DNA of 64,000 bases from a virus (IMGVR_UViG_2778261510_000005), one strand, 5' to 3'; numbered from the stretch's first letter, positions 571-39,560 are shown. Notes: generated by a model not told the origin, from the letters alone. Translations and numbers: made by a program.

Positions 571-586
571 ATGTCACCATAAATAT

Positions 587-603: not shown

Positions 604-620
604 CATTTACGCGTTAATGG

Positions 621-1652: not shown

Positions 1653-1659
1653 TTAACAC

Positions 1660-2070: not shown

Positions 2071-2104
2071 ATAACTTCGTATAATGTATGCTATACGAAG
2101 TTAT
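2071..2104. other. loxP recombination site (13-bp inverted repeats flanking 8-bp spacer)
   Basis: Exact ATAACTTCGTATA-ATGTATGC-TATACGAAGTTAT. Confidence 0.98.
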
Positions 2105-3657: not shown

Positions 3658-3689
3658 ATTATGCCCGGCATCAACCGGGCATTCTTCCA

Positions 3690-4808
3690 TTATTCAGCCG
3701 CCACCGGTTTTAACAAGCCAGCATCGAGCAGTTTACGCGTCAACCACTGCTGGCCTTTACCCGTTAATTGGGGCGTCAGCCGTATCTGGTAGCCATCTTC
3801 ATCATCCAGCACCACTTCTTTCACCGTGAAATACCCCGCGTTGATGTACTGCTGGAACGGCGCATTTTTACGTCCACCGGACGCTATCAGGATGCCGTTC
3901 TCCCGTAACCAGACAAACAGCGCGTTTTGCTTAAGTCCAACAACCTTTGCAAAATTCCCAATCAGGATCCCTTTAGCTACTGATACCCGGTCGGCAAAAT
4001 CGACTTTAAGAGCGGCGGCCACCAGCTGCTGATTTAGCTGGTGGGCTTTCTGTTCCAGAAGTTGCTTTTGTTCAGCCAGTTCGGCAGCCAGGCGTAGGGC
4101 TTCAGGAAGCGTCTGGGGGATTGCGATCGGTTGCTGTTCTTTTTGTCGGAAGTAGCTGTCTTCCAGTTTTTCAAAGAATGCCCATGCCTGATCGGTTTCG
4201 AGCATTTTAGCGTGGCGGGCTGCGCCGCGTTCTGTCCAGAGGGTGAGTGAGCGAACATTGCGAGCAATTTTTACAGAGTAGTTTAAAGCTACTCTGTGCT
4301 TCAACTCGCGCAATGATTCTCCTTCAACTTTGAAAAAGTGCTTCCCTTCAACAAAGCGTACTTTGTTCTCATGATGATTTTGGCGAATACGGATTGTTTC
4401 TGTCCCATACCCTCTAGCAAGAGTCTCGGTTGTCACTACACGCACTCCCTGCCATTCCAGAACGGGAATTTCATCAGACTGATTCTGAACAACCACCAGC
4501 TCCGATTCCTGAACTGAAGGTGCATGAATTTTTTCTAATTTAACGTTATTTGCTTTCATTCTGTGTGCCTCCTTGCGTGCTTCGGCTGCGACGGTTGCGT
4601 AATTCAGATGCCCCTGTTCGAGCAGGTATTCGCGGATATCAGACAACAGGATACGGTGAACCGCGTGTTTGTCCTTTCTCCGGTAAAGTTGTTTGGTGAT
4701 CATGAAGTAGTTGGCAATAACGCCTGGTATATCCCTGGTACTGATACAGGCAGTGTGCTGTTCAATTGCCTCGATCATCTCTTCACGGGTGACTAATGAC
4801 GTTCTCAT
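3690..4808 (-). CDS. Antirepressor-like protein, second Ant paralog (372 aa)
   Basis: N-terminus and C-terminal domain (IPQTLPEALRLAAELAEQK...GKGQQWL..KLLDAGLLKPVA) are paralogous to Ant at 51394..52431; about 400 bp is near-identical at nucleotide level. Start overlaps the stop of the upstream icd-like ORF. Confidence 0.75.
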   Translation of the reverse strand: MRTSLVTREEMIEAIEQHTACISTRDIPGVIANYFMITKQLYRRKDKHAVHRILLSDIREYLLEQGHLNYATVAAEARKEAHRMKANNVKLEKIHAPSVQESELVVVQNQSDEIPVLEWQGVRVVTTETLARGYGTETIRIRQNHHENKVRFVEGKHFFKVEGESLRELKHRVALNYSVKIARNVRSLTLWTERGAARHAKMLETDQAWAFFEKLEDSYFRQKEQQPIAIPQTLPEALRLAAELAEQKQLLEQKAHQLNQQLVAAALKVDFADRVSVAKGILIGNFAKVVGLKQNALFVWLRENGILIASGGRKNAPFQQYINAGYFTVKEVVLDDEDGYQIRLTPQLTGKGQQWLTRKLLDAGLLKPVAAE

Positions 4809-5026
4809 AGTCCCTCCTGAGCCGAAGCGTTAACAGGGAGGCACCAGTAACTGAGAGAATTGCGCGAATCGGTAGAAAAGCGGGCAGAGAAAATACAGGG
4901 AGCATCCGGAAGCTGAGAACGCGCCTCATCTTCTGTTGGTGCGATAACGAAGTGATAGTGACGTTTTTGGCAGGAGTAAAAGCGCCAGATAAATTCAGGA
5001 TGAGTTGGGGTAGGGATAGTAGCCAT
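4805..5026 (-). CDS. Icd-like small protein (73 aa) of a second immI-type cassette
   Basis: Internal ATG at 5026 with AAGGAGG RBS; MATIPTPTHPEFIWRFYSCQKRHYHFVIAPTEDEARSQLPDAPCIFSARFS parallels Icd at 52428..52649; same 4-nt overlap with the downstream ant. Confidence 0.55.
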   Translation of the reverse strand: MATIPTPTHPEFIWRFYSCQKRHYHFVIAPTEDEARSQLPDAPCIFSARFSTDSRNSLSYWCLPVNASAQEGL

Positions 5027-5190
5027 ATTGGCAGCCTCCTTAGACGTTGGTATGTAACCACCGCAGAAGAGACCAATCTTGCTGGCGGTGGACTGTACGG
5101 AGTTGGCCTTACTGGCGTCCAAGGTAACCAGCCTACCCGAAGGTAGCCCCATACAGCCCACCATTGTAGAGGTGTGCGTGTACGCCGATA

Positions 5191-5216
5191 CAAAAAAAAA
5201 GACGCGAGCGGCGTCT
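5191..5216 (-). terminator. Intrinsic terminator on the minus strand within the leader of the second icd/ant cassette
   Basis: AGACGC-GAGCG-GCGTCT hairpin followed, on the minus strand, by a U9 tract (plus-strand A9 at 5192-5200). Confidence 0.55.
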
Positions 5217-5340
5217 GTATCGCCTTAGACTTAAGCGGGAGGCCAATCCCGGCACCCGTTTTAATGAGGTGCCTGATAAGCATAAACCGAAAATGCCTCA
5301 AGGCGCAAGAGGTCAGGCTCAATGTAACATCGGTAGTTAA
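5217..5340 (-). ncRNA. Candidate c4-like antisense/leader RNA of the second immI-type cassette
   Basis: Lies between a C1 operator (5346-5362) and a terminator (5191-5216), upstream of the icd-like RBS; carries a second copy (5221-5229) of the RBS-region sequence CCTTAGAC (5038-5045), as in the P1 c4 decoy/target layout. Boundaries are guesses. Confidence 0.3.
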
Positions 5341-5345
5341 AAAAC

Positions 5346-5362
5346 ACAATTTATTAGAGCAA
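5346..5362 (-). promoter_or_regulatory. C1 operator upstream of the second icd/ant cassette
   Basis: CAATTTATTAGAGCAAA; 2 mismatches to the operator consensus. Confidence 0.65.
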
Positions 5363-5366
5363 ATAT

Positions 5367-6851
5367 TCATTCATTAAGCCATGCCAGAGCTTCATCAACC
5401 TGCGCTTCGTCTTCGACGCTAAGCACTTCATCCTGGGGAACATAATCCGCCAGCATAGCGAAACAATATGTATCCCAATGGTCTGGTGAGTGCAGGTTGA
5501 GTTTTTTCTTCATATCCTCCTTACTCATCACCTTCCATTGACCTGCGGAGTTAATCCCTACAGGGATTTTCGACGCTTCCTCAATAGTTTCATTACCCTT
5601 ATCCAGTCTCATACGACCAGATTTTACGGCCTCTGCGGCTTGAACGTTGGCATAAGCACGTTTATCAAAGTACAGGCTCTTATCTTCACGGCTATGCATC
5701 TTTTTACCCCAGCGTATACGCTGTACGGTAATACCATAATACTCGTACATCAGATCCGCCGTTGCTTTACCCAGGCCATCGCCGTCTATCGCTATGGTGA
5801 TATTTGGGAATCGCTCAGGATTACATTCTGCGAAAATTTTGGCGGCAAGCTGCGTTTCTGTAACGTCTGTGTATTCCAGCATTCGATAGTTGATTACACG
5901 GCGTTTATTTCGCTGGCCGGACACCATCATGATATTGATAACGGACTTATCCCGTCCCGTACCACCAGCAACGTCCACACATGCAAGCCAGCCCCATCCT
6001 TTGGCAATCTTGACTTTCCGCCGCGTTGCACGTTCAACCTCATCACGTCCAAGAAGGAAGCCATCCTGTGATTTAGGGAATAGGCCGCGTACCTTAATCA
6101 TGTACATAGGGTTATCACGCCCGCCGTACTCCGCCAGCTTCATTTTGATAAATGCTGGCGTTACCAACGGTGATTCCTCACTGTTAAGCGTGATCGCCGT
6201 ATAAACGCCATCAGGGTTACCAGGACGCTTGGCCAGTTTATGGTGAGTATCGTAGAAATAGCCGCTTGGGCGTGTAGGCTGTGACAGTAATAAGATGCGG
6301 TTATCCTGTCCGGTAAGAGCACCAGTGATGATACCGAAAGCTCTATCACTGACACCGGAGGCTTCATCGATAATATACAGAAGATGATCTGCGTGTTCAC
6401 CGGCGAGAGCTTCTTCACTTCCCAGACGAAAGCCCTTCGGTACTACAGTCCATACACCTTTACCAGTAACCTCATAGAAAGCGGTTTCTGTCAGAACAAA
6501 ATAATCAGCAAGCCATGGAAAACGGCTGGTGGCAGTAGCCCAGTTTATCTTGATGTACTTGAATATACCGGTCATTACCTGCTGAATTTTGTTCGCAACG
6601 ATAATGGCGCGGGCACCGGGATACATGATTATGAACAACATGATCATGATAGAAGTCATGTCTGATTTCCCGGTACCGTGACCAGACGAAACAGATGTCT
6701 TGCTACCCTGTTCCTGCACAGACTCAATAATCAGATCCTGCTGCCAGGTAGGTGTTTTGCCGAACAAAACATCAGCGGCAGCAATCCAGTCATAACGATA
6801 TAGCGCCACCAGCTCGCGCCAACGTGGATCCGTTACGCAACTTCTGGCCAT
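5367..6851 (-). CDS. pacB: Terminase large subunit PacB
   Basis: 494-aa protein directly downstream of pacA and overlapping its stop; size and position match P1 PacB. Confidence 0.85.
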
Positions 6852-8044
6852 TAATCATCATCCCCGTATAGCTTGCGGGTAACTTCTTCGTCTTCCTCCT
6901 CGTCTTCGTCCAGGTCTTGTTCCAGCCATGGGTCGTTTGATACACCTTCAGTATCAACATCTCCATAACCGCCTGTATCAACGATATCGGCGATTTCTTC
7001 CCTACGCTGCTCAATCCACAATGCGGCATCGGCGCGGCGGTTGGCGGCCCGTTCTCGCGCAACTTTGTCCAGATCTTCAAGAGAAGGGCCACCGACGGCT
7101 GTTTGCCTTTCCTCATCATCGGTATTGGTCTTAGGAGCACGCAGATCGGCTTTGATTTGCTCCAGCATCAGGGGCGGCACTTTCCCGCCATGCGCCTCGA
7201 TGAATTCAGCTGCTTCCAGCACTGACCAGTTATTTTCACGCTTTCGTTCGTATGCCAGCTTAACAATGCCAGCTTGCCCCATAGACAAAGCGTGCTTTTC
7301 CGCCTCCCGGCTTTCTTTTCGATAGTTATTCCGGATGCTGTAAATGGTGTTGATCAGGCTGCTTATCTGCGCGGAACAGCTGTTTAGCATGCTCGCGATA
7401 CGGTATTCAGGCGGAGTACCTTCATCATCGTCTTTTTGCTGATCGCGCATTTCCTGCACCAGGCGAATACACGTATCCCTGGCGTTCTCCAGCATAAGGA
7501 GGTGAGAAAGAGACTTTTCAAGAAGAGTGGTTTCCAGAACATCGGCCCCGGACCGACGCAACATAGCGCGCGCGGCCTTCCGCGCTTCAACGTTATCTAT
7601 CAGGTAATCGCCAGCTTCGAATTCAAAGCGTTCACCATCATCATCCAGGGTGTCGCGTTCCAGGCGATCACGTAAGGTCCGGTGGGCGCGGGTGATCACG
7701 TCATGATCATCTGAACGATCATTTATGCGCTTATTTTGGCGCTTCGCATTCTCGACTGCAGCACTGACAACGGCATTAACTCTCTGTTTTTCCGCTATTT
7801 CAGCCGCAATATGATCACCTGCATGTTGATCATTAGAGTGATCAATGATCATGCTTTTTAGTGGCTTCCTGACTGGCTTATTTGGCTTGCGGCTGTCCGC
7901 AGTCCTGGTGTCTTCTTTGAAGGCACGGAGATAACGACGTGCGGTATTAGGGTTAAGATTAAACTCGGCGGCATACTGTGCGATGGTGTAACCACCATCT
8001 CGCGCCAGGCGAGCAAAATTCTTCTTGTGATCGTCCCAGGTCAC
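6851..8044 (-). CDS. pacA: Terminase small subunit PacA (contains the pac site)
   Basis: 397-aa protein; N-terminus [39 protein letters not shown]; the coding sequence contains clustered TGATCA hexamers typical of P1 pac. Confidence 0.88.
7690..7855. other. pac packaging site (two clusters of TGATCA hexamers with Dam GATC sites)
   Basis: TGATCA at 7693, 7704 (plus GATC 7717) and at 7812, 7827, 7839, 7846, about 100 bp apart inside pacA. Confidence 0.75.
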
Positions 8045-8129
8045 TTATGCTTCCTTTCGTAAAAACTCTTTTTGACGCGAGGGTAACGAAAGTCACATGT
8101 CAAAAGGCCCGGAACGGGCAAGCAATCAA

Positions 8130-8582
8130 TCAGATACGTGCGGATGTGGCATTACCGTAATGACGGTGCTGACGGGCCACCTTATTGAAAAGTTGACGCG
8201 CCATTACCCAAGGCAGGTGCTCCCGGCGTTCCTTTTCGTCCTGCGTCATATAGAGTTCGTTCTGGAGTTTTTCATCAAACCGGCGCGGAGCGCGGCTGCG
8301 GCGAAAGAATTCAGGATTCAGAGAGTGGATCTGAAATCTACGTGGGCGTGTACTGTCATCAATCAAAACAGACGAATACTTAGACACAGCGATAGCCTTT
8401 AAGCGCAGATAAACATCGCGCTTATCGACATCCAGATGCGGGTATTCCTTTTCAAGGATTGCTGCGAGTTCTTTCGCTGATAGAAGAGATTTAGTGCGAA
8501 TCATGTAATCCGCAATCTCATACGATGTAATTCGTGAGTGATTTATTTCCATGAAGTGGCGTCCCTGCCAGTTAAGTAACAT
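8130..8582 (-). CDS. lpa: Putative late promoter activator (Lpa/gp10-like), 150 aa
   Basis: Assigned by size and position immediately upstream of pacA, as I remember for P1; not recognised by sequence. Confidence 0.5.
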   Translation of the reverse strand: MLLNWQGRHFMEINHSRITSYEIADYMIRTKSLLSAKELAAILEKEYPHLDVDKRDVYLRLKAIAVSKYSSVLIDDSTRPRRFQIHSLNPEFFRRSRAPRRFDEKLQNELYMTQDEKERREHLPWVMARQLFNKVARQHRHYGNATSARI

Positions 8583-8670
8583 CCTGTCACCTACTGATTA
8601 GCCCATGTCAACTAATCAACGACGAATATAATACCCTAGATTAAAGAAATAGCAATACATCAGAGCAATT

Positions 8671-9714
8671 TTATCTAACGCTCGACGAGTGACTTGTGAT
8701 AGCGCCGACTCCAAGCGCGTAATCAAAGAACAATCGTTGATGCATCGCCAGCCTGCCGTGCGTCTTCTCCCAATTATCGCGGTCACGCTCAATATCACGC
8801 TGGCATGACTGGCACAGAGGAATTGCGTAAATGTCATGCGCGCATAATCGACTATGACGAACGATATAAGGCGTAATGTGAGCGCCAGCTCCCGCCGCTC
8901 CACACCCACAGCATGGACGGGAAGCAACAAAGTCCATGTACTCAGGTAATTTTAGCGATTGCAGTTTTGGTATTTTGAAATGCGCCATGCCAGGGTCGGA
9001 GTCAACATCCACAGGGCATACTTTTGCACGCATCGGCGCGGCGCGTTCTTCCATCATCTGAACATATGCTGTAGCGCGATCGTCATACGGGCGAATATCC
9101 GCCTCTTTCAGAGGTCCGCTATCCTGCGTTGCGGCTTTCATCTTATTTATTGATATACGGCAGACTTCTTCCGGCATCAGGTGCATCATGTTGCGCATGA
9201 AAGCCCACCAGCACAGCTCCTGAATACTTAAATCATGGCTATTTGAAAGGCCCATTTCCTGACGGGCGACATCCAGTATCCAGTTAACGCGATTATTGTG
9301 CAGCGTTTCTTTCAGCTCATTAAAACCACGCATCCGGTAATGGTTATCGTGATGCCAGCACAACAACACCGCGCTATTGTCTCGTTCAGCGTGGACAATA
9401 TGGTTGTCACACCAACTACGATCTGCGGCCTGGCATTGCCCCTCTTTCCTACGCAACCACGCCACCAGCGCGTCAATTCCACCAATACGGCGAAACAGTT
9501 CATCGCTGTTAAAAAACGGCTGCAACGCCTCATTTGTTGCCATGGTTTGCTCGGAAACAACGAGGCCGTCGTCCATGTGCTCGATTAACTCACGCGGCAC
9601 CGGCTCCATAATAAATTTACGGCCAGCCTCCACCAGCTTTCTGACTTCCTGATCCACTTTGAATGTGGCGACGCCAAGCTCTTTTTGTACAAAGGGAGTA
9701 ATTACGGCTTTCAC
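8671..9714 (-). CDS. Hypothetical cysteine-rich protein (347 aa), possible Zn-binding C-terminal motif
   Basis: C-terminus [42 protein letters not shown]; RBS AAAGGTG preceded by CCAATCA. Confidence 0.6.
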
Positions 9715-9740
9715 ATCACACCTTTCATCACTGATTGGGT

Positions 9741-9920
9741 TTATCTGCTGCCCGGCATTCTCTGTTTAAGCACAACCATTTCCTGACGGCATAACACAGC
9801 AATAGCGGTCCTGGCACCAATTTGCTTACCAACCAGGTATTGCTTTACCTCGCGGCGACTCACGCCATCAAGAAGCATCTTTAACGCTTCACGGGACAAT
9901 TTGTTGTATTTGCGTGCCAT
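9741..9920 (-). CDS. Small basic protein (59 aa from the ATG after the doc stop), possible helix-turn-helix
   Basis: [40 protein letters not shown]...; its start abuts the doc stop. Confidence 0.45.
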
Positions 9921-9924
9921 TAAT

Positions 9925-10305
9925 CTACTCCGCAGAACCATACAATCTACGTAACGTGTCGGCGACAGAAGATACAGATATCTCTCCGGTCGCAGCCCCT
10001 ACGGTAAGGTCTGCCAGTTCAGGTGAATCAAATACCTGCACCCCGTTACGGCGTAGAAATAACAGCGCACTGTTTAGCGCGGTACGCTTATTGGCATCAT
10101 TGAATATATGCCCTCTCGCTGTAGCCACTAGGTAGGTGGCGGAGACTTCGAAAAGGTCGGTGATCTCTTCGTAGGCAACTCTGGCCTGAACTCTCCCGAT
10201 AATGGCCTCTGCCCTACCCGGATCTGACATTCCCGGCAGGCCGCCGTAGCGGTTTATATTCGCATCATGAAGCGCAATAAGTTCTTCCGGTGATATATGC
10301 CTCAT
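9925..10305 (-). CDS. doc: Doc toxin (death on curing)
   Basis: 126 aa, [78 protein letters not shown]; matches P1 Doc as I remember it. Confidence 0.95.
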
Positions 10306-10526
10306 TATCGGTTAACCAGTTCCTTGTTGGTGGAGTCCAGGGTGTCAAACAGGGATGCAAATTCAGCATCCAGCGCCGCTTTTTTGTAGGCTTCGAAAGT
10401 AGCCTTGCTGACAATTACTGCTGGCTCACGGCCTCTGCGGGTGATTTCAACCTCTTCCCCGGCTTCAACATTGTTGAGCACTTCAGAAAGGTTGCCGCGC
10501 GCGGTACGGAAGTTAATGGATTGCAT
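10305..10526 (-). CDS. phd: Phd antitoxin (prevent host death)
   Basis: 73 aa from the second [76 protein letters not shown]; stop overlaps the doc start. Confidence 0.95.
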
Positions 10527-10532
10527 AAACAC

Positions 10533-10558
10533 CTCGTGTACTCGTTATGTGTACACAA
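10533..10558. promoter_or_regulatory. phd-doc operator region (tandem GTGTAC palindromic sites)
   Basis: GTGTAC at 10535-10540 and GTGTACAC at 10549-10556, just upstream of the phd start. Confidence 0.55.
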
Positions 10559-10702
10559 TTATAAACTTCACAGGCATAAAGCACCAGCACTTTGCGGCTT
10601 AACAAACCTCTAGGCAGGTCATTCGTAGCCTAATGTCCGAACTGCTAAAGCATCCAAGTTGCTGTAGAATCACCGCCAATTACATAAGCCTGAAATAAGT
10701 GG

Positions 10703-12265
10703 ATGAAAATGACAAGTATTCAACAACGTGCAGAGCTTCATCGTCAAATCTGGCAAATTGCTAACGATGTCAGAGGTTCTGTCGATGGATGGGATTTTAA
10801 GCAATACGTTCTGGGCGCACTTTTCTACCGTTTTATCAGCGAAAATTTTTCCAGTTATATGGAAAATGGTGATGACAGCATCTGTTATGCGGCACTTGAT
10901 GACGGCATTATTACTGATGACATTAAAGACGATGCCATCAGAACCAAAGGCTACTTCATCTACCCCAGTCAGCTTTTCTGCAACGTAGCGGCGAAAGCAA
11001 ATACCAATGACAGACTGAATGCAGATTTAAATAGTATCTTCGTTGCTATCGAAAGCTCTGCTTACGGTTACCCTTCAGAAGCTGACATCAAAGGTTTGTT
11101 TGCTGATTTCGATACAACCAGTAACCGCCTGGGGAATACCGTTAAGGATAAAAATGCCCGCCTGGCCGCGGTTCTGAAAGGGGTTGAAGGGTTAAAGCTT
11201 GGCGACTTTAACGAACATCAGATTGACCTGTTCGGCGATGCCTATGAGTTCCTGATTTCTAACTATGCCGCGAATGCCGGTAAGTCCGGCGGCGAGTTCT
11301 TTACACCGCAGCACGTCTCTAAGCTGATTGCACAACTGGCTATGCACGGGCAGACCCACGTTAACAAAATCTACGACCCGGCAGCAGGCTCCGGTTCGCT
11401 GTTGTTGCAGGCTAAAAAACAGTTTGATGACCATATCATCGAAGAAGGTTTTTTTGGTCAGGAAATCAACCATACGACCTATAACCTGGCACGTATGAAC
11501 ATGTTTTTGCACAACATCAACTACGACAAGTTTGATATCAAGCTGGGCAATACGCTGACTGAACCGCACTTCAGAGATGAAAAACCGTTTGATGCCATCG
11601 TTTCTAACCCGCCGTATTCGGTGAAATGGATTGGCAGCGATGACCCGACGCTGATTAACGATGAGCGTTTTGCCCCGGCTGGCGTCCTGGCCCCCAAATC
11701 AAAAGCTGACTTCGCGTTTGTATTACATGCGCTGAACTATCTTTCGGCCAAAGGTCGCGCCGCGATTGTCTGCTTCCCGGGTATTTTTTACCGTGGCGGC
11801 GCAGAGCAGAAAATCCGTCAGTATCTGGTCGACAATAACTATGTCGAAACCGTGATTTCACTCGCACCGAACCTGTTCTTTGGCACCACCATTGCTGTAA
11901 ACATTCTGGTGCTGTCTAAACATAAAACGGATACCAAAGTTCAGTTTATTGACGCCAGCGAGCTGTTCAAAAAAGAAACTAACAACAATATCCTGACCGA
12001 TGCCCATATCGAACAGATTATGCAGGTATTTGCCAGCAAGGAAGATGTTGCCCATCTGGCGAAATCTGTTGCGTTTGAGACTGTTGTCGCGAATGACTAT
12101 AACCTGTCGGTGAGCAGTTATGTTGAAGCGAAAGATACTCGCGAAATTATCGATATCGGTGAGCTGAATGCTGAGCTGAAAACCACGGTCAGCAAAATCG
12201 ACCAGTTGCGCAAAGATATTGATGCGATTGTGGCTGAAATTGAAGGCTGCGAGGTGCAGAAATGA
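10703..12265 (+). CDS. hsdM: Type I restriction-modification N6-adenine methyltransferase subunit HsdM
   Basis: 520 aa with NPPY motif ([11 protein letters not shown]) and AdoMet-binding region ([10 protein letters not shown]); same length as EcoR124-family HsdM. Confidence 0.93.
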
Positions 12266-13431
12266 GCGAGATGAGTTATCTGGAAAAATTGCTGGATGGG
12301 GTTGAAGTTGAGTGGTTGCCATTGGGGGAAGTCTCAGCCTTAAGAAGAGGCAGAGTTATGTCAAAGGGATATTTAACTGAAAATTTTGGCCCATATCCTG
12401 TCTATAGCTCTCAAACTGCAAATAATGGGAAAATAGGTTCTATCAATACCTTCGATTTTGATGGCGAATATATAAGCTGGACAACAGATGGCGCAAATGC
12501 AGGCACTGTGTTCTATCGAACAGGTAAATTTTCAATAACTAATGTTTGCGGCCTGATTACATTAAAAAGTAAATACTCATTAATCTACAAATTTCTGTTT
12601 TACTGGCTAACAATAGAAGCCAAAAAACATGTTTACTCAGGAATGGGAAACCCCAAGTTAATGAGTCATCAGGTTGAAAATATACCTGTACCAATCCCCT
12701 GCCCGGATAATCCGGAAAAATCCCTTGCCATCCAGTCTGAAATCGTTCGGATTCTGGATAAATTTACTGAGCTTACAGCAGAGCTTACAGCAGAGCTTAC
12801 AGCAGAGCTTAGCATGCGTAAAAAACAATACAACTACTATCGCGACCAGTTGTTGAGTTTTAAAGAGGGTGAGGTTGAGTGGAAGACTTTGGGAACATTT
12901 GCAGATAATTTTGATTCTCTTAGAAAACCAATAACTAGTGGATTAAGGGAGACTGGAAATATTCCCTATTATGGTGCGTCAGGCATTGTTGATTACGTAA
13001 AAGATTATATTTTTGATGATGACCTGTTATTAATTTCTGAAGATGGTGCGAATCTTATTGCAAGAAATACCCCTATAGCTTTTAGCATTAGCGGTAAAAC
13101 GTGGGTGAATAATCATGCTCATGTACTTAAATTCAAAAACTACACTGAACAAAAATTTGTTGAATATTACTTAAACAATATCAATCTTACGCCGTACATA
13201 TCAGGAGCAGCCCAGCCAAAGCTAAATAAGAAAAACTTAGAAAGTATCCGTATTCCTAATCCATCACTAAAAGAAAAAGAGCGGATTGTTACTATTCTGG
13301 ATAAATTCGACACCCTGACTAACTCCATCACCGAAGGTCTCCCGCGTGAAATCGAGTTACGCCAGAAACAATACGAGTACTATCGTGATTTACTGTTCAG
13401 TTTCCCAAAACCTGAAACAGTCAGTAATTAA
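12262..13431 (+). CDS. hsdS: Type I restriction-modification specificity subunit HsdS (type IC-like, TAEL repeat)
   Basis: 389 aa, overlaps the hsdM stop; central conserved region carries [12 protein letters not shown] flanked by two target-recognition domains. Confidence 0.9.
12769..12810 (+). repeat. 12-bp tandem repeat GAGCTTACAGCA x3.5 encoding (TAEL)3 in the HsdS spacer region
   Basis: Perfect tandem copies at 12769-12780, 12781-12792, 12793-12804 plus a partial copy. Confidence 0.95.
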
Positions 13432-13552
13432 TTGACCATTGCTACCGACCGGGCCACCTTAACATCCGGTCTGTATATAGACTATTTTTTACACGCTGGA
13501 AGTCGCCCTTAAAGCTCTTCCGGCCCTTGCCAGACGGCACAAAGGATGCGCT

Positions 13553-16500
13553 ATGACTCATCAGACATACACCATTGCTGAATCCAATAACTTTATCGTT
13601 CTTGATAAGTACATCAAAGCTGAGCCAACAGGCGACAGCTACCAGAGCGAATCGGACCTGGAACGTGAACTGATTCAGGACCTGCAAAATCAGGGCTATG
13701 AATTTATACCCGTAAAATCACAGTCAGCGATGCTGGCCAACGTTCGGGAACAGCTTCAGAGCCTCAATGGTGTGATGTTTAATGACAGCGAGTGGCGGCG
13801 CTTCACGGAGCAGTATCTGGACAACCCCAGCGATGGTATTCTGGATAAAATCCGTAAAATCCATATCGACTATATTTGCGACTTTATTTTTGATGACGAG
13901 CGTCTTGAGAACATCTATCTGATAGATAAAAAGAATCTCATGCGCAATAAGGTGCAGATTATCCAGCAGTTTGAACAGGCAGGTTCTCACGCTAACCGTT
14001 ATGACGTAACTATCCTGGTTAATGGCTTGCCACTGGTGCAAATCGAACTAAAAAAACGCGGGGTGGCGATTCGTGAGGCTTTCAACCAGATACATCGTTA
14101 CAGTAAAGAGAGTTTTAACAGCGAAAATTCCCTGTTTAAGTATCTGCAACTGTTTGTCATTTCTAACGGCACCGATACCCGTTATTTTGCCAACACGACA
14201 AAGCGCGATAAAAACAGTTTTGACTTCACCATGAACTGGGCTAAAGCAGACAATACACTGATTAAAGACCTCAAAGACTTTACCGCTACCTTTTTCCAGA
14301 AACATACTCTGCTTAATGTTCTGGTGAACTACAGCGTTTTTGACAGCAGTCAGACACTACTGGTAATGCGACCGTACCAGATTGCCGCCACCGAGCGCAT
14401 TCTGTGGAAAATTAAGAGTTCCTTTACAGCGAAGAACTGGTCAAAACCGGAAAGCGGTGGGTATATCTGGCACACTACCGGTTCTGGTAAAACCCTCACC
14501 AGCTTTAAAGCCGCGCGTCTGGCAACAGAGCTGGACTTTATTGATAAAGTCTTCTTCGTGGTCGACAGGAAAGACCTCGATTACCAGACCATGAAGGAAT
14601 ATCAGCGTTTTTCGCCAGACAGCGTCAACGGCTCGGAAAATACCGCAGGACTTAAACGAAATCTGGACAAGGACGATAACAAAATTATCGTCACTACTAT
14701 TCAGAAACTCAATAACCTGATGAAAGCAGAAAGCGACCTGCCTGTATATAATCAGCAAGTGGTGTTTATATTTGATGAATGCCACCGCAGCCAGTTTGGA
14801 GAAGCGCAGAAAAACCTGAAGAAGAAATTCAAACGCTATTATCAGTTTGGTTTTACCGGTACCCCTATTTTCCCGGAAAACGCCTTAGGCTCAGAAACGA
14901 CCGCCAGCGTATTTGGTCGTGAATTGCATTCGTATGTAATTACCGATGCGATTCGTGACGAAAAAGTGCTCAAATTCAAGGTGGACTACAACGATGTGCG
15001 GCCACAGTTTAAGTCTTTAGAGACAGAAACTGACGAGAAAAAACTAAGTGCGGCTGAAAATCAGCAGGCGTTTCTTCATCCCATGCGTATTCAGGAAATC
15101 ACGCAATATATTCTGAATAATTTCCGCCAGAAAACTCACCGTACCTTCCCTGGCTCAAAAGGTTTTAATGCTATGTTGGCAGTGAGCAGCGTGGATGCCG
15201 CGAAAGCCTATTATGCGACGTTTAAACGGTTACAAGAAGAAGCCGCTAATAAATCGGCTACCTATAAACCGCTGCGTATTGCGACAATCTTCTCCTTTGC
15301 CGCCAATGAAGAACAAAATGCCATTGGTGAAATTTCCGATGAAACTTTTGATACCAGCGCAATGGACAGCAGTGCTAAAGAGTTTCTGGACGCTGCAATT
15401 CGTGAATATAACAGCCATTTTAAAACTAACTTTAGCACCGACAGTAACGGTTTTCAGAACTACTATCGTGATTTAGCCCAGCGGGTTAAAAATCAGGATA
15501 TCGATCTGCTAATTGTCGTGGGGATGTTCTTAACCGGCTTCGATGCTCCAACATTGAACACGCTATTCGTCGATAAAAACTTACGTTTTCACGGCCTGAT
15601 GCAGGCATTTTCCCGCACCAACCGCATTTATGACGCCACTAAAACCTTCGGTAATATCGTCACTTTCCGGGATCTGGAACGCTCAACTATTGATGCCATA
15701 ACGCTGTTTGGTGACAAAAACACCAAAAATGTGGTGTTAGAAAAGAGTTATACAGAGTATATGGAAGGCTTTACTGATGCTGCTACTGGTGAAGCTAAAC
15801 GCGGCTTTATGACAGTAGTTTCAGAACTGGAACAACGGTTCCCTGACCCTACCAGTATTGAAAGTGAAAAAGAGAAGAAAGACTTCGTTAAACTGTTTGG
15901 CGAATACCTGCGTGCCGAGAACATCCTGCAAAACTATGATGAATTTGCCACGCTGAAAGCCCTGCAACAAATCGATCTTAGCGATCCTGTTGCGGTAGAA
16001 AAATTCAAAGCAGAACATTATGTGGATGATGAAAAGTTCGCTGAATTGCAAACAATTCGTCTCCCTGCTGATCGCAAGATTCAGGATTATCGTTCTGCCT
16101 ATAACGATATTCGCGACTGGCAGCGCCGTGAGAAAGAAGCTGAGAAAAAAGAGAAATCAACCACTGACTGGGATGACGTGGTTTTTGAGGTTGATTTGCT
16201 GAAGTCTCAGGAAATAAACCTGGATTATATCCTTGGACTGATTTTCGAACACAACAGACAAAATAAAGGCAAGGGCGAAATGATCGAAGAGGTCAAACGC
16301 TTAATTCGTTCAAGCCTGGGGAACCGTGCTAAAGAGGGCCTGGTGGTCGATTTTATTCAGCAAACGAACCTGGATGATTTACCGGACAAAGCCAGCATCA
16401 TTGACGCATTCTTTACGTTTGCTCAACGCGAACAGCAACGTGAAGCAGAAGCATTGATAAAAGAAGAAAATCTCAATGAAGATGCAGCAAAACGCTATAT

Positions 16501-16669
16501 TCGCACGTCTTTAAAACGCGAATACGCCACCGAAAATGGCACAGAATTAAACGAAACATTACCAAAACTTAGTCCGTTGAATCCGCAATATAAAACGAAA
16601 AAACAGGCAGTTTTCCAGAAAATCGTCTCGTTTATTGAGAAGTTTAAAGGCGTAGGCGGAAAAATATAG
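13553..16669 (+). CDS. hsdR: Type I restriction endonuclease/helicase subunit HsdR
   Basis: 1038 aa with SF2 helicase motifs (TGSGKT Walker A, DECH box) and an N-terminal nuclease region; same length as EcoR124I HsdR. Confidence 0.93.
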
Positions 16670-16747
16670 CCCAATTCGTGTTTTTCTTGCGGGTTCTTAA
16701 TTAAACCCGCAAGAGCTCGTGGGGTTCCAAATGGCTAATATACTCCC

Positions 16748-16835
16748 CTTACCCATGCGCGACGATGCCGCCAAAAGTGATAGAGAACAGCCAGAAATAG
16801 ATCGCGGCCATAATGATTTTGAATGCCGTGTTCAT
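16748..16835 (-). CDS. Candidate small hydrophobic peptide (28 aa), possible type I toxin or small membrane protein
   Basis: MNTAFKIIMAAIYFWLFSITFGGIVAHG with AGGAG RBS 8 nt upstream; not in the supplied ORF track (below its length cutoff); a plus-strand terminator converges on its 5-prime region. Confidence 0.3.
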
Positions 16836-16863
16836 ATTTTCAGCTCCTGTGATTGATTGGATA

Positions 16864-16894
16864 CATGCCGCGCCTTGCGGCATGTTTTTATTTT
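16864..16894 (+). terminator. Rho-independent terminator on the plus strand (CATGCCG-loop-CGGCATG + T-run)
   Basis: 7-bp perfect stem followed by TTTTTATTTT; preceded by TGATTGATTGG. Confidence 0.55.
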
Positions 16895-16917
16895 CACTTT
16901 CTCTGTTTTAAAAATCA

Positions 16918-16934
16918 AGATTTATTAGAGCAAT
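16918..16934 (-). promoter_or_regulatory. C1 operator
   Basis: AGATTTATTAGAGCAAT, 16/17 match; flanking context AAAAATCAAGA is nearly identical to that at 2141-2164. Confidence 0.75.
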
Positions 16935-17440
16935 TATTGCTGATGGAGAAGCGCGTTTTCATACTCCCTGACCATTAACGTAAGTACGCCGTGACTCCTG
17001 AAAACACGCGCCACGTCAATCTTATCTTCCAGCGCGAACGCAATTTTACTTAGACCAATTTTCTTCAGGAGATCAATCTTTGCTGGACCGTCATTTCTGT
17101 CATCGGTGGCAGGACGCATAGATAGCAAAGGCTCAGTCCCATTTGTTACGTGCTTACGCAACCAGGCTCGTGTTTTATCCCTGGCTATCTCACAGCGCCC
17201 GGTTACAAACCAGAGGGTGTAAATGCCGGACAACTGGCGCACCATATCAATAACTGGAGTGATGGGAGCATCAGTGTCACAGGCAAGGTTAAACTCGTTC
17301 CAGTGCTCTGTTAATGCACCTTTGCCAGGTGGTGGAAGTAAATGCAGCCTGTCTTCCGTTGCCTCTGATATCGTCCCATCAATATCTACTATGACGATGT
17401 ACGGACGTTCCTGGTGTGCGTGTTTATTGAAAATACTCAA
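16934..17440 (-). CDS. HAD-superfamily phosphatase-like protein (168 aa)
   Basis: N-terminal IVIVDIDGTIS (DxDGT) motif typical of HAD phosphatases; might correspond to a P1 pap-like gene. Confidence 0.6.
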   Translation of the reverse strand: MSIFNKHAHQERPYIVIVDIDGTISEATEDRLHLLPPPGKGALTEHWNEFNLACDTDAPITPVIDMVRQLSGIYTLWFVTGRCEIARDKTRAWLRKHVTNGTEPLLSMRPATDDRNDGPAKIDLLKKIGLSKIAFALEDKIDVARVFRSHGVLTLMVREYENALLHQQ

Positions 17441-17512
17441 ATGCCCTCCTCATTGGACGAAAAAAATGCTGGTGGGAGCACTCCACCAGCATTAAAAGTG
17501 ACACTGTAACTA

Positions 17513-18775
17513 TCAGCGAACGTAAATAGTGCCGCCGTTCTCTTTTTCCCATGCATCGCTACGTGCATAGCAAACATCGAGAAGTCTTCTTGCCGCAGTT
17601 TCCTCTAAACCCAATTCGACAACCAACTGCTCATGACGGCGGGTAACCACATCAAACAGGGTATGCAGCCCTTTAGTTGCCAGATCATCAATGAATTCCG
17701 GTTCGAACGGCAGCTCTGCATCTGCCAACATAACCTCTTGCGCCCACTCAACTCGACGGACCAATTCCGGGCGGCGGCTTTCCATCTCTTTACAGATCAA
17801 TTCATGGAAGAACTCTACCCAACCTTCCGGCTGGAACTCGCGGAAAATTGCCAACGGCTGGAAGTTTGGCATCAACCATTCGTTGATTCGGATATCAATG
17901 GCATAGCCCATGTCGCAGCAGAACTGATAAGCAAAGTCCAGCTTAGACACGATATAAGGACGCTCGTTATTGAACTCTTTAGGCGATGAGATCCCATAAG
18001 CCAGGAGGCGCGGGAAGAAGGATATTTGCCCTAACGTCGGATGAAGTTTGCTTGCAGGGAAACGGCGCTCAGTAATGCCATACATTTCCTTCTTGAGCGT
18101 CGCAAATTTGGCATTCTCATTAACCAGCGCGGTAACCTCTGCTTTTTTATTAGCAAATGCCACGCGCGCTTCGCTTGCATCTTTAATAGTTTTTTTGAGC
18201 TGTTGGTTAAGGTCGGCGACCTGCTTACGCAGTTCCTGTCGCTCGCTTTTAGCTTTGTTATAGCGTTTCTCAAGGTTAAAAGGATCAAGTTTCATGATCT
18301 CTTTATATTGAGATTTTAGCGTTGAAATCTGTGAGTTCCGCAGTTCAACCATCGCGGTCATTTCATTGAGTTTTGTTTCCAGCTCAATGCTTATACGTTC
18401 GGCATTATCAGCACGCTGGTTGGCGTCATGCGTCGCATCGTCGAGCGCGTCCTGTTGCTGGCGTTTCAAATGTTCAATTTGCAGCTGAAGCTCTTCAATT
18501 TCTTTATCCTTCAGACCGAGATCCAACTGCATATTTTCAGCTGCATCTACCAGGGAGTTATGGCTATCAGCTTCTGCGTTATAAACATCAATAAGCTGTG
18601 CGTGAAGCATCTCCGCTGACTGAACCGCATTATCAAAAAAACGCGCTGTGAGGTCATCACAACTAACGCGGCGTTGCGCGGCCCGGATGTTCTGGATAAT
18701 GGCCTGGATACCGGCATTCAGGACGTCAGGGATAGATACATTTTCGATTGATTGGTTTTGTGCTGAAGTGATCAT
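17513..18775 (-). CDS. Hypothetical protein with long N-terminal coiled coil (420 aa)
   Basis: Heptad-rich, charged N-terminal half (EELQLQIEHLKRQQQDALDD...) and a Cys/aromatic-rich C-terminal domain; no family recognised. Confidence 0.65.
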   Translation of the reverse strand: MITSAQNQSIENVSIPDVLNAGIQAIIQNIRAAQRRVSCDDLTARFFDNAVQSAEMLHAQLIDVYNAEADSHNSLVDAAENMQLDLGLKDKEIEELQLQIEHLKRQQQDALDDATHDANQRADNAERISIELETKLNEMTAMVELRNSQISTLKSQYKEIMKLDPFNLEKRYNKAKSERQELRKQVADLNQQLKKTIKDASEARVAFANKKAEVTALVNENAKFATLKKEMYGITERRFPASKLHPTLGQISFFPRLLAYGISSPKEFNNERPYIVSKLDFAYQFCCDMGYAIDIRINEWLMPNFQPLAIFREFQPEGWVEFFHELICKEMESRRPELVRRVEWAQEVMLADAELPFEPEFIDDLATKGLHTLFDVVTRRHEQLVVELGLEETAARRLLDVCYARSDAWEKENGGTIYVR

Positions 18776-18776
18776 T

Positions 18777-18995
18777 TCAAAGTTCCGTATTAGCTTGTGC
18801 TTCGGTCATTTTTCCTAAGTATGAAGGAGGAAGGACTACGCAATTTGTATCCAGTCCCTCACCTATGGCAGCCTGTAAAATTCTGGCTAAGGTGAGTCTC
18901 TTGTTGCGATACCTGGTGATGACATGCCTGATACCGCCGGTCGGCGTAACAAAGGCGATCAGCCAGTAGTGATATTTCCGTCGGAATGGCCACAT
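18777..18995 (-). CDS. Hypothetical small protein (72 aa)
   Basis: ORF abutting the upstream gene, downstream of the operator-flanked hairpin at 19010-19075. Confidence 0.45.
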   Translation of the reverse strand: MWPFRRKYHYWLIAFVTPTGGIRHVITRYRNKRLTLARILQAAIGEGLDTNCVVLPPSYLGKMTEAQANTEL

Positions 18996-19009
18996 AGTGC
19001 ACCTTGTAG

Positions 19010-19026
19010 ATTGCTCTAATAAAAAA
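19010..19026 (+). promoter_or_regulatory. C1 operator-like site, left member of an inverted pair
   Basis: ATTGCTCTAATAAAAAA; 11-mer core perfect, 3 mismatches at the distal end. Confidence 0.5.
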
Positions 19027-19050
19027 CGTGATGAGTGTACATCACGTTTT
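19023..19050 (-). terminator. Perfect 10-bp inverted repeat hairpin (AAAACGTGAT-N8-ATCACGTTTT) between the two operators
   Basis: Followed on the minus strand by a U-rich tract; sits between convergently oriented operator copies. Confidence 0.45.
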
Positions 19051-19058
19051 AAAAATAT

Positions 19059-19075
19059 GGAATTATTAGAGCAAT
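19059..19075 (-). promoter_or_regulatory. C1 operator-like site, right member of the inverted pair
   Basis: GGAATTATTAGAGCAAT; core perfect, 3 mismatches distally. Confidence 0.5.
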
Positions 19076-19100
19076 ATTATTCTGATTCTCGCTCAAAAAA

Positions 19101-19778
19101 TCAGCTGATAAGGGGAAGCCAATCCTCTGACACTTCGCGAGGTCGCGGTTTGCCGTGGAAAAAGATTATTCGGCAGTCTTTTGGTAATGCCCCATTCCCC
19201 CTGGAGTAACGCGCGCTCGCATATTTTGAACCAGGTTCCACAACATCGGCCTTGTAACTTACAAACCATCCTGGATACAGATCCTGAAATGCTGGTGTAT
19301 CATCGCCCATAACCTTTCGTAAGAACCCCTGGTCCCCCCAGCACTCAGTAGTGACACAACGAGAAATCCAACCTTCCGGATCTTGCCAGAATGAACTCCA
19401 GATATGCGCTTTAACACTATTTGGTATCCACAGGGCACCGCTGCCACGATATTGTGGATGGTAAAAATCCCTAAGCATGGTGAAGCTGGTTGGTGGATGC
19501 TCTAGGATTGGGCGTATATCACCGGCAATAACCGTGTCCAAATCCAGATAGAACAGATCATCGGTTATATCCGGTCGGAACAACTCGATTTTCGCCCACC
19601 AGCCACGGCACTTTTGCCACTGGTTGATCAATGGGACAACTTTGACGCCAGGTACATGTAAACGCTTCAGGTCTGTCAGGCAAATAATTTCATAGCCTTT
19701 TGGCAGTTGATTAACCAGCCACTGCACATCGGAAGCGTTATAGTCACCACCAGAGCGAAAAACTAAAGCAATCTTCAT
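19101..19778 (-). CDS. Hypothetical protein with DxD motif, possible GT-A-type glycosyltransferase (225 aa)
   Basis: [12 protein letters not shown] resembles the DxD sugar-nucleotide-binding motif; weak inference. Confidence 0.5.
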
Positions 19779-38690: not shown

Positions 38691-38698
38691 AAAGTAAT

Positions 38699-39559: not shown

Positions 39560-39560
39560 G

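What the first reader, a model, noticed from the sequence alone, without database searches (positions are those of the whole stretch)
10703..16669. Type IC-like hsdMSR system with a (TAEL)x3 slippage-prone repeat in HsdS, divergent from phd-doc
A complete type I system (HsdM 520 aa, HsdS 389 aa, HsdR 1038 aa) sits where I do not remember P1 having one; P1 itself carries a type III system elsewhere. The HsdS central region contains the 12-bp repeat GAGCTTACAGCA in three tandem copies. In the EcoR124I/EcoR124II pair, two versus three TAEL copies change the spacer length of the recognition site, so this repeat is a plausible specificity switch. The system is divergently transcribed from the phd-doc addiction module, forming a defence/addiction cluster.
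Basis: partly seen in the sequence, partly recalled or inferred. Interest (0 to 1): 0.6.

Follow-up and report, generated by a model that had tools for sequence, protein, structure and literature searches.

The report
EcoR124-family restriction system in P1-like plasmid
This is an intact but ordinary type IC (EcoR124-family) restriction-modification system at a long-known spot next to phd-doc in a P1-like phage-plasmid; its 12-bp TAEL repeat, known to set the spacer of the DNA target, occurs as two or three copies in otherwise near-identical plasmids from public assemblies.

Summary
hsdM (10703-12265), hsdS (12262-13431) and hsdR (13553-16669) are intact. A perfect 12-bp repeat, GAGCTTACAGCA x3.6 (12769-12811), encodes TEL-(TAEL)x3. 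phd-doc lies divergently upstream.

HsdM is 98.1% and HsdR 99.1% identical to EcoR124I. HsdS shares the EcoR124 conserved regions but has different target-recognition domains (TRDs). This is a true type IC system.

The location is not new. The cassette (10603-16744) replaces P1 humD-pmgT. Its end-points match those the P1 GenBank record marks as flanking the EcoDXXI hsd locus (Tyndall et al. 1997). In PLSDB, 671 plasmids carry this phd|hsdM junction and 478 carry the P1 reference junction.

Three TAEL copies is also the count in EcoR124II, EcoDXXI and EcoprrI.

The switch idea gains support. The same TRD pair occurs with three copies (at least 24 contigs) and two copies (at least 21 contigs). 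Three plasmid backgrounds, 58-164 SNPs apart, each contain both forms within 0-1 SNP over 7.5 kb. That implies at least three independent gains or losses.

Four-copy alleles were seen only in disrupted systems.

The recognition sequence and the activity are untested. Verdict: new member of a known kind, low to moderate interest.

The parts
9925..10305 (-). doc, the toxin of the P1 addiction module (126 aa, Fic fold)
   Evidence: ORF. 98% DNA identity to P1 doc. Pfam Fic on the identical gene in related contigs.
10305..10532 (-). phd, the antitoxin (the annotated Phd of 73 aa ends at 10526; the ORF with a GTG start extends to 10532)
   Evidence: PF02604 PhdYeFM_antitox.
10558..10586 (-). Pphd promoter, retained from P1 (-10 TATAAT at 10563-10558; -35 at 10586-10581). 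Coordinates are transferred by homology, within about 1 nt.
   Evidence: P1 record annotation of Pphd at L001 2526-2554, mapped through the blastn alignment. Sequence read.
10603..16744 (+). The 6,142-bp hsd cassette, which is the non-P1 DNA. It replaces the 3,487 bp of P1 that carry humD, lxr, hot, upfO/N/M and pmgV/U/T.
   Evidence: blastn of the window against P1: homology ends at window 10602 (L001 2570) and resumes at 16745 (L001 6058). These are the same end-points as the P1 record's misc_features for the flanks of the EcoDXXI hsd locus.
10703..12265 (+). hsdM, the N6-adenine methyltransferase subunit (520 aa). Motif I DPAAGSG and motif IV NPPY are present.
   Evidence: Pfam HsdM_N and N6_Mtase. 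510/520 residues identical to the EcoR124 M chain 7bst_D. PADLOC MTase_I.
12262..13431 (+). hsdS, the specificity subunit (389 aa). N-terminal conserved region 12262-12333; TRD1 12334-12678; central conserved helix 12679-12894; TRD2 12895-13251; C-terminal conserved helix 13252-13428.
   Evidence: Pfam Methylase_S x2. In the alignment to the EcoR124 S chain 7bst_A the three conserved regions are near-identical and both TRDs are unrelated. Domain limits were read from that alignment.
12769..12811 (+). 12-bp tandem repeat GAGCTTACAGCA x3.6, encoding TEL-(TAEL)x3 in the central helix. It determines spacer length. Related contigs carry 2 or 3 copies.
   Evidence: TRF, sequence, alignments, literature.
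13432..13552 (+). hsdS-hsdR intergenic region with one sigma-70-like match at 13459-13488 (TTAACA-18-TATTTT). This is a candidate for the separate hsdR promoter known in EcoR124I.
   Evidence: Consensus scan only and sequence. Weak: the region has fewer promoter-like hits than its shuffles.
13553..16669 (+). hsdR, the translocase-endonuclease subunit (1038 aa). D151/E165/K167 nuclease motif, K313 Walker A and D408-E409 DEAD box are all present.
   Evidence: Pfam HSDR_N, ResIII/SWI2_SNF2, T1R_D3-like, EcoR124_C. 1029/1038 residues identical to EcoR124I HsdR 2w00_A, with no substitution in the motifs.
16934..17440 (-). pap (P1 acid-phosphatase-like gene), the first P1 backbone gene on the right of the cassette

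Best explanation
The region is an intact type IC (EcoR124-family) restriction-modification system carried as a 6.1-kb cassette in a P1-like phage-plasmid. It sits between the phd-doc addiction module and pap, where reference P1 has humD to pmgT.

M2S1 would methylate adenines in a bipartite target, and R2M2S1 would translocate and cut unmodified DNA. This is inferred from near-identity to EcoR124I.

The two half-sites are read by the two TRDs of HsdS. Their identity is unknown. These TRDs differ from those of EcoR124I, and the pair is widespread in uncharacterised HsdS proteins.

The distance between the half-sites is set by the length of the central helix, which carries the TAEL repeat. Three copies, as here, should give a spacer 1 bp longer than the two-copy allele of the same TRD pair, as in EcoR124II versus EcoR124I.

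In natural populations the 12-bp unit is gained and lost recurrently, in frame, by slippage or unequal crossing-over. Otherwise identical plasmids therefore carry alternative predicted specificities.

Shown here: gene integrity, family membership, cassette junctions, and the 2/3-copy polymorphism on identical backgrounds.
Inferred: enzymatic activity, the effect on the spacer, and the mutational mechanism.
For: Family and integrity:
- Pfam and PADLOC assignments.
- HsdM 98.1% and HsdR 99.1% identical to the solved EcoR124I chains, with catalytic motifs unchanged.
- HsdS conserved regions match EcoR124 S, while the TRDs do not.

Context:
- Junctions at 10602/10603 and 16744/16745 coincide with the P1 record's notes on the EcoDXXI and R124/3 flanks.
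- Tyndall et al. 1997 is cited in PMC12707154.
- 671 PLSDB plasmids share the phd|hsdM junction, against 478 with phd|humD.

Repeat and spacer:
- Review PMC3874165 states that EcoR124I (x2) recognises GAA N6 RTCG and EcoR124II (x3) GAA N7 RTCG. EcoDXXI and EcoprrI have x3, and engineered hybrids behaved as predicted.
- Removing one TAEL unit is used experimentally to convert EcoR124II to EcoR124I.

Polymorphism:
- The exact 389-aa protein is on at least 24 contigs.
- A 385-aa protein that differs only by one TAEL is on at least 21 contigs, in the same P1-like context.
- Over doc to pap (7.5 kb), three haplogroups that differ by 58-164 SNPs each hold both states within 0-1 SNP: window x3 = L009 x2 = L011 x2; L004 x3 vs L010 x2; L007 x3 vs L014 x2.
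- Fitch parsimony gives a minimum of 6 changes on the NJ tree. A conservative count is 3 or more.
- Two further TRD pairs in IMG/VR also show x2 and x3 (L032/L041, L049/L051). L049 and L051 are 99.6% identical over 10.4 kb with a single 12-nt gap.
Against: - No methylome or restriction data exist, so activity and the N versus N+1 spacer shift are not shown for this TRD pair.
- The recognition sequence could not be assigned, because REBASE was not available.
- hsdS was ascertained by exact protein match, so its own lack of SNPs is partly by construction.
- The locus is recombinogenic: a SNP-free block of about 2 kb lies in backgrounds that differ by 1-2%. Some of the 2/3 pattern could therefore come from allele transfer rather than in-situ change.
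- Most contigs are short-read assemblies and two are k=31 Logan contigs, so miscounts at a tandem repeat cannot be fully excluded. However, the three key pairs are NCBI assemblies and the tract (31-43 bp) is shorter than a read.
- The promoter assignments are consensus matches only.
Confidence: 0.8

Rival explanations
1. The three-copy tract is simply the fixed, standard state of the type IC family, and not a switch. The 2/3 differences between contigs reflect old, stably inherited alleles moved around by homologous recombination.
For: EcoR124II, EcoDXXI and EcoprrI all have three copies, called 'the optimum number' in PMC3874165. In IMG/VR, 10 of 29 TRD pairs were seen only with x3 and 15 only with x2. 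The hsdS block is identical across backgrounds that differ elsewhere, which shows recombination at the locus.
Against: Three distinct backgrounds each contain both states with 0-1 SNP over 7.5 kb and 0-2 SNPs over about 17 kb. Explaining this by transfer needs two separate imports per background with identical break-points. In-situ gain or loss needs one event each. More distant relatives of this TRD pair (75-90% identity) all have x2, so x3 is derived within the P1-like lineage.
Confidence: 0.12
2. The system is an inactive remnant, for example silenced or non-functional with this HsdS, so the repeat number has no phenotypic consequence.
For: No functional data exist. Type IC loci with IS insertions or frameshifts do exist.
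Against: All three ORFs are full length. The 10 substitutions in HsdM and 9 in HsdR relative to biochemically active EcoR124I avoid the catalytic motifs. The identical gene set is conserved on dozens of contigs.
Confidence: 0.05
3. The 2-versus-3 copy difference is an assembly artefact of short-read or k-mer assemblers collapsing or expanding a tandem repeat.
For: Most contigs come from draft assemblies. In Logan (k=31) contigs a 43-bp periodic tract can form a cycle in the assembly graph. L011 and L016 are Logan contigs.
Against: The tract is far shorter than Illumina reads. Each state is seen on more than 20 independent contigs. The decisive pairs are all NCBI assemblies. Complete long-read genomes and plasmids also show x2, x3 and x4 alleles in this family.
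Confidence: 0.03

Closest known systems
EcoR124I / EcoR124II (type IC prototype, plasmids R124 and R124/3)
   Same: HsdM is 98.1% and HsdR 99.1% identical, with the same lengths (520 and 1038 aa). The gene order hsdM-hsdS-hsdR is the same. The HsdS N-terminal, central and C-terminal conserved regions are shared. The TAEL repeat sits in the central helix, and the x3 count matches EcoR124II.
   Different: Both TRDs are unrelated, so the half-sites differ and are unknown. The repeat DNA is a different version: (GAGCTTACAGCA)n with a TEL lead, against GCACTTACCGCT(GAGCTTACCGCT)n with a TAL lead. This gives one more perfect unit at the same TAEL count.
EcoDXXI hsd locus (plasmid pDXX1) as described by Tyndall et al. 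1997
   Same: The genomic setting is the same: P1 doc-phd DNA upstream and P1 pap-side DNA downstream. The homology end-points are the same as annotated in the P1 record (L001 1893-2571 and 6058-6277, against the window junctions at L001 2570 and 6058). It also has three TAEL copies.
   Different: The specificity subunit probably differs: no named EcoDXXI-like protein appeared among the hits that share these TRDs. The EcoDXXI sequence itself was not available for direct comparison.
Reference phage P1 (NC_005856)
   Same: The backbone on both sides is 98% identical (lox-cre-c8, c1, pacAB, lpa, pdcAB, doc, phd; pap, pmgS and onward).
   Different: P1 has humD, lxr, hot, upfO/N/M and pmgV/U/T (3.5 kb) where this element has the 6.1-kb hsd cassette. 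The P1 R-M system is the type III EcoP1I, located elsewhere.
Simple-sequence-repeat phase-variable type I systems (e.g. those surveyed by Atack et al. 2020, PMC7383803)
   Same: A repeat tract inside hsdS changes length and alters the methyltransferase output.
   Different: Here the unit is 12 bp, so changes are always in frame. Only the spacer length is predicted to change, with no ON/OFF switching. The tract is short (2-4 units), so rates are expected to be far lower than for classical contingency loci.

Membership tests
Type IC restriction-modification (EcoR124 family) | HsdM and HsdR closely related in sequence to, and in principle interchangeable with, EcoR124I subunits | tested here: met
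   510/520 and 1029/1038 identical residues to PDB chains 7bst_D and 2w00_A. Pfam EcoR124_C at 1.9e-71. Complementation itself was not tested.
Type IC restriction-modification (EcoR124 family) | HsdS organisation: short conserved N-terminus, TRD1, central conserved helix with TAEL repeats, TRD2, conserved C-terminus | tested here: met
   Alignment to EcoR124 S (7bst_A). Conserved blocks aa 1-24, 140-211 and 331-389 are near-identical. TEL-(TAEL)x3 lies at aa 169-183.
Type IC restriction-modification (EcoR124 family) | Gene order hsdM-hsdS-hsdR, with hsdR separated and separately promoted | tested here: inconclusive
   The order, the 4-nt hsdM/hsdS overlap and the 121-bp gap before hsdR are confirmed. 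There is only a weak consensus promoter match at 13459-13488.
Type IC restriction-modification (EcoR124 family) | Catalytic motifs intact (HsdM motifs I and IV; HsdR PD-(D/E)xK, Walker A, DEAD box) | tested here: met
   DPAAGSG and NPPY are present in HsdM. D151, E165, K167, K313 and D408-E409 are present in HsdR. All are identical to EcoR124I in the alignments.
Type IC restriction-modification (EcoR124 family) | Bipartite asymmetric m6A target; ATP-dependent cleavage away from the site | not testable with these tools
   Needs a methylome and restriction assays.
P1-flanked type IC hsd loci (Tyndall et al. 1997) | hsd genes bounded by DNA homologous to P1 phd-doc on one side and the P1 pmgT-upstream / pap region on the other | tested here: met
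   98% identity to P1 up to window 10602 and from 16745. The end-points equal those annotated in NC_005856 for the EcoDXXI and R124/3 flanks.
Repeat-number specificity switch of the EcoR124I/EcoR124II kind | Same TRD pair found with different TAEL copy numbers | tested here: met
   The 389-aa (x3) and 385-aa (x2) proteins are otherwise identical, each on more than 20 contigs. Both states occur on three near-identical backgrounds.
Repeat-number specificity switch of the EcoR124I/EcoR124II kind | The copy-number change shifts the target spacer by 1 bp | not testable with these tools
   Shown for EcoR124I/II and for EcoR124-EcoDXXI hybrids in the literature. Not shown for this TRD pair.

The most novel reading that the evidence does not exclude
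The TAEL tract in P1-like phage-plasmids may act as a naturally toggling specificity dial. Otherwise identical plasmids flip between x2 and x3, with at least three independent events in this one allele and further cases in at least two other TRD pairs. This would create mutually restricting sub-populations of the same phage-plasmid and host lineage. Four-copy alleles appear only in systems that have been inactivated, which would fit a toxic or relaxed specificity. Because 90%-identity protein clustering merges x2 and x3, current methylome and defence annotations would systematically miss this layer of variation.
Probability: 0.4. Interest if true: 0.45.

Novelty: new member of a known kind. 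Interest (0 to 1): 0.28.

Why it matters
The locus is a textbook type IC system in a textbook place, so it does not open a new question. Three modest points follow from it.

1. It gives population-genomic evidence that the EcoR124I/II-type repeat change, known from laboratory strains since the 1980s, recurs in wild P1-like plasmids. Nearly identical plasmids and hosts may carry different restriction barriers.

2. Predicting specificity from TRD identity or from 90%-identity protein clusters will mis-assign the spacer. The x3 protein was absent from the large protein index even though more than 24 contigs encode it.

3. The phd|hsdM form of this P1 region is commoner among sequenced plasmids than the reference-P1 form. 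The 'P1 reference' is therefore the minority arrangement at this accessory-gene hotspot.

Tried and rejected
- Exact-sequence look-up of synthetic 0-, 1-, 4-, 5- and 6-copy versions of this HsdS. None was found, but the genuine 3-copy protein was also reported absent from that index, so the result is uninformative.
- The first protein search failed because of a queue time-out and was repeated.
- No PLSDB plasmid and no complete E. coli genome holds this TRD pair at full length. The comparison therefore had to rely on draft assemblies.
- The recognition sequence could not be assigned. REBASE is not available, the methylome papers examined concern other HsdS alleles, and PDB S subunits other than EcoR124 are too distant.
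- Papers not held in the library: Lobocka 2004, Gubler & Bickle 1991, Youell & Firman 2008. The statement that a four-repeat HsdS has relaxed specificity therefore rests on my memory and on the paper's title.
- Exact four-copy patterns gave no hit in IMG/VR. A BLAST of a four-copy query against complete E. coli genomes did find four-copy alleles.
- Structure prediction was considered and dropped. Coordinates cannot be measured with these tools, and the EcoR124I structure already exists.
- The consensus promoter scan gave fewer hits than shuffled sequence, so no promoter claim is made beyond homology to the annotated P1 Pphd.


Full report
**1. The observation.**
- hsdM 10703-12265 (520 aa);
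- hsdS 12262-13431 (389 aa, overlapping hsdM by 4 nt);
- hsdR 13553-16669 (1038 aa).

Tandem Repeats Finder reports GAGCTTACAGCA, period 12, 3.6 copies, 100% match, at 12769-12811. The sequence reads ACT (GAG CTT ACA GCA)x3 GAG CTT AGC, which translates to [16 protein letters not shown]. It is the only short perfect tandem repeat in the window. The other arrays are the P1 replicon iterons at 38.4-39.7 kb. doc (9925-10305) and phd (10305-10532) lie on the opposite strand, 170 bp from hsdM.

**2. What it is.**
- Pfam finds HsdM_N and N6_Mtase in the first protein, two Methylase_S domains in the second, and HSDR_N, ResIII/SWI2_SNF2, T1R_D3-like and EcoR124_C in the third. PADLOC calls them type I MTase, specificity subunit and REase.
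- Against solved structures, HsdM aligns end to end with the EcoR124 M chain 7bst_D with 10 substitutions in 520 residues.
- HsdR aligns with EcoR124I HsdR 2w00_A with 9 substitutions in 1038 residues. None falls in the nuclease motif (D151, E165, K167), Walker A (K313) or the DEAD box (D408-E409). HsdM keeps DPAAGSG and NPPY.
- HsdS aligns with EcoR124 S (7bst_A) only in the N-terminal, central and C-terminal conserved regions. Both target-recognition domains (TRDs) differ.
- That chain has [11 protein letters not shown] (two copies). The window has [15 protein letters not shown].

The system is therefore a genuine member of the type IC family, with the EcoR124 scaffold and a different specificity subunit.

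**3. Where it sits, and whether that is new.**
The window is a P1-like phage-plasmid:
- window 73-2087 is P1 lox-cre-c8;
- 8034-10602 and 16745-19400 are 98% identical to P1;
- 17-41 kb matches hundreds of P1-like plasmids.

P1 homology stops at window 10602, the end of humD in P1, 16 bp beyond the -35 of the annotated phd promoter. It resumes at 16745, just upstream of pmgT. A 6,142-bp cassette thus replaces 3,487 bp of P1 (humD, lxr, hot, upfO/N/M, pmgV/U/T).

The P1 GenBank record already marks exactly these stretches. It describes them as 98% identical to 'sequence upstream of EcoDXXI hsd locus' and 96-98% identical to 'sequence downstream of EcoDXXI hsd locus / R124/3 hsdR', with the same end-points. 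This is the finding of Tyndall et al. 1997 (Mol Microbiol 23:729), whose title says that type IC hsd loci are flanked by P1 DNA (cited in PMC12707154).

The arrangement is also very common:
- 1,569 PLSDB plasmids match the cassette, and 560 cover at least 80% of it;
- 671 carry the phd|hsdM junction, against 478 with the reference-P1 phd|humD junction;
- 1,291 of 5,426 complete E. coli genomes have a type IC hsdS-like match.

But the configuration is long known, and it is the majority form.

**4. The repeat.**
The review PMC3874165 states the following:
- The 12-bp TAEL unit is present twice in EcoR124I (GAA N6 RTCG) and three times in EcoR124II (GAA N7 RTCG).
- EcoDXXI and EcoprrI also have three copies.
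- EcoR124-EcoDXXI hybrids with altered copy number changed spacer exactly as predicted.
- The change is ascribed to unequal crossing-over.

Deleting one unit is used in practice to turn EcoR124II into EcoR124I. So three copies is not unusual in itself.

At the DNA level the window's tract differs from the EcoR124 version, which is GCACTTACCGCT(GAGCTTACCGCT)n. The lead codon here is GAG (TEL, not TAL). This makes one more perfect unit for the same TAEL count.

**5.
- No PLSDB plasmid or complete E. coli genome holds this TRD pair at full length. Each TRD occurs singly with other partners, as expected from modular reassortment.
- In the large protein collection, the best hits are 385-aa proteins with the same TRDs and one TAEL fewer. 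P0001 is identical to the window protein apart from that 4-aa gap.
- The exact 389-aa protein is encoded on at least 24 contigs, and P0001 on at least 21. All are in the same pacA-lpa-pdcB-pdcA-doc-phd / hsdMSR / pap-pmgS context.
- I aligned 7.5 kb (doc to pap) from 17 full-length loci. This gave 328 SNP columns outside the repeat and three tight haplogroups that each contain both states:
  - window, L093 and L008 (x3) with L009 and L011 (x2), at 0-2 SNPs;
  - L004 (x3) with L010 and L012 (x2), at 1-4 SNPs;
  - L007 (x3) with L014 (x2), at 1 SNP.
- The groups differ from one another by 58-164 SNPs. Over about 17 kb the key pairs differ by 0-2 SNPs plus the 12-nt indel.
- Fitch parsimony on the NJ tree needs 6 changes. 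Because of zero-length branches, a conservative count is at least 3.
- A TAL-lead version of the same TRD pair also exists as x3 (L019) and x2 (L100-L102, P0002-P0004).
- Among 56 type IC HsdS genes (29 TRD pairs): 36 came from IMG/VR, and the other 20 were the window, L002 and L003-L018, nearly all of them this one TRD pair. Of the 29 pairs, 15 were seen only as x2, 10 only as x3 and 1 as x1. Three were seen as both (this one, L032/L041 and L049/L051). L049 and L051 are 99.6% identical over 10.4 kb with a single 12-nt gap.
- More distant relatives of this TRD pair (75-90% identity) all have two copies. They come from Salmonella, Lactococcus, Streptococcus suis, Amphritea and metagenomes. Three copies is therefore the derived state here.

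Caveats:
- hsdS was ascertained by exact protein match.
- The locus recombines: a SNP-free block of about 2 kb spans backgrounds that otherwise differ by 1-2%.
- Most contigs are short-read drafts. However, the tract is shorter than a read, and the three decisive pairs are NCBI assemblies.

**6. Range of copy number.**
No four-copy tract was found in IMG/VR. A four-copy query against complete E. coli genomes found four records, representing three independent alleles, with TAL/SAL-(TAEL)x4:
- plasmid NZ_CP122941.1: same TRD1 as the window, hsdS cut by IS3;
- chromosome NZ_CP148583.1 and its sister genome: hsdM frameshifted;
- chromosome NZ_CP091427.1: same TRD1, hsdS C-terminus hit by ISVsa5.

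All are disrupted. In the IMG/VR sample, by contrast, at least 29 of 34 x2 loci and 16 of 19 x3 loci look intact. The sample is small. The pattern fits my recollection, supported only by the title of Gubler & Bickle 1991, that a longer linker relaxes specificity.

**7. Mechanism, with shown and inferred steps.**

Shown:
- intact genes of the EcoR124 family;
- a retained phd promoter, with a back-to-back arrangement in a 170-bp intergenic region;
- a 121-bp gap before hsdR;
- an in-frame 12-bp repeat that varies between 2 and 3 units on identical backgrounds.

Inferred from the family:
- M2S methylates a bipartite target, and R2M2S translocates and cuts unmodified DNA.
- The extra TAEL lengthens the central helix by about one turn and moves the TRDs one base pair apart. 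The x3 form would then recognise the same half-sites as the x2 form with a spacer 1 bp longer.
- The change arises by slippage or unequal crossing-over.
- A cell that switches survives thanks to the assembly-based restriction alleviation described for type IC.

Unknown:
- the half-sites;
- the switching rate;
- whether both forms are active.

**8. Verdict.**
The HsdS allele is an uncharacterised member of a known family. The added value is the evidence for recurrent natural 2-3 toggling. Interest is low to moderate.

Noticed in passing
L103 (NZ_CP122941.1 22618-25734), L104 (NZ_CP148583.1), L105 (NZ_CP091427.1): Four-copy TAEL alleles exist in complete E. coli genomes. All three independent cases are in disrupted systems: IS3 in hsdS, a frameshift in hsdM, and ISVsa5 in hsdS. 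By contrast, at least 85% of the x2 and x3 loci in IMG/VR look intact. The sample is small, but it suggests counter-selection of x4.
   Followed up: partly
L103 1021-1677: An hsdS with the same TRD1 as the window is cut by IS3 just after the central helix, while hsdM is annotated as intact (hsdR lies beyond the IS3 and outside the stretch fetched, so it was not examined). This is a natural analogue of the EcoDXXI-deltaC and EcoR124I-delta50 half-subunits, which dimerise and recognise a palindrome.
   Followed up: no
window 12262-13431 vs H63 (CP064340.1, 'Lactococcus lactis' plasmid, 239.7 kb), P0034, P0055, P0029, P0016-P0030: The same TRD1+TRD2 combination is conserved at 73-80% identity in Firmicutes, a marine gammaproteobacterium (Amphritea) and metagenomes, always with two TAEL copies. 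Enterococcus faecium plasmids share only the TRD2 half at 76% DNA identity. This TRD pair is old and widely spread.
   Followed up: partly
window about 11900-13900 (3' end of hsdM, hsdS, 5' end of hsdR): This block has no SNPs among plasmid backgrounds that differ by 1-2% in the rest of hsdM and hsdR and in the flanks. That indicates the hsdS allele has been moved between backgrounds by homologous recombination. The pattern is partly due to ascertainment by exact protein match.
   Followed up: partly
window 12262-13428 (protein): The 389-aa HsdS is reported absent from the 15-billion-protein index and from the homologue search output, yet at least 24 public contigs encode it. Indexes clustered at 90% identity hide x2/x3 variants, which are predicted to differ in specificity.
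   Followed up: yes
L013 12666-17158 (GCA_013759885.1): In one relative, the P1 DNA to the right of hsdR is replaced by a Tn3-family transposase and resolvase and a PAS/HAMP methyl-accepting chemotaxis-like gene. L100 has the same MCP-like gene on its left edge.
   Followed up: no
L002 (phage vB_EcoM-673R5, ON470615.2) 3176-9127: In this deposited P1-like phage genome, hsdM and hsdR are annotated as several fragments ('HsdR1', 'HsdR2', two M pieces). This is either real decay or sequencing frameshifts. Its HsdS (418 aa) has three TAEL copies.
   Followed up: no
window 38453-39709: These tandem repeats of 21-31 bp are the P1 plasmid-replicon iterons (GATGTGTGCTGGAGGGAAA-like). They are ordinary.
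   Followed up: no
window 1-72: The first 72 bases do not align with the first 10 kb of P1 (1-10000), the only part of P1 this stretch was compared with. Downstream of c8, where P1 has ref, this element may therefore differ from P1. The P1 res/mod region lies outside the window, so it cannot be told from the window whether this element also carries the type III system.
   Followed up: no
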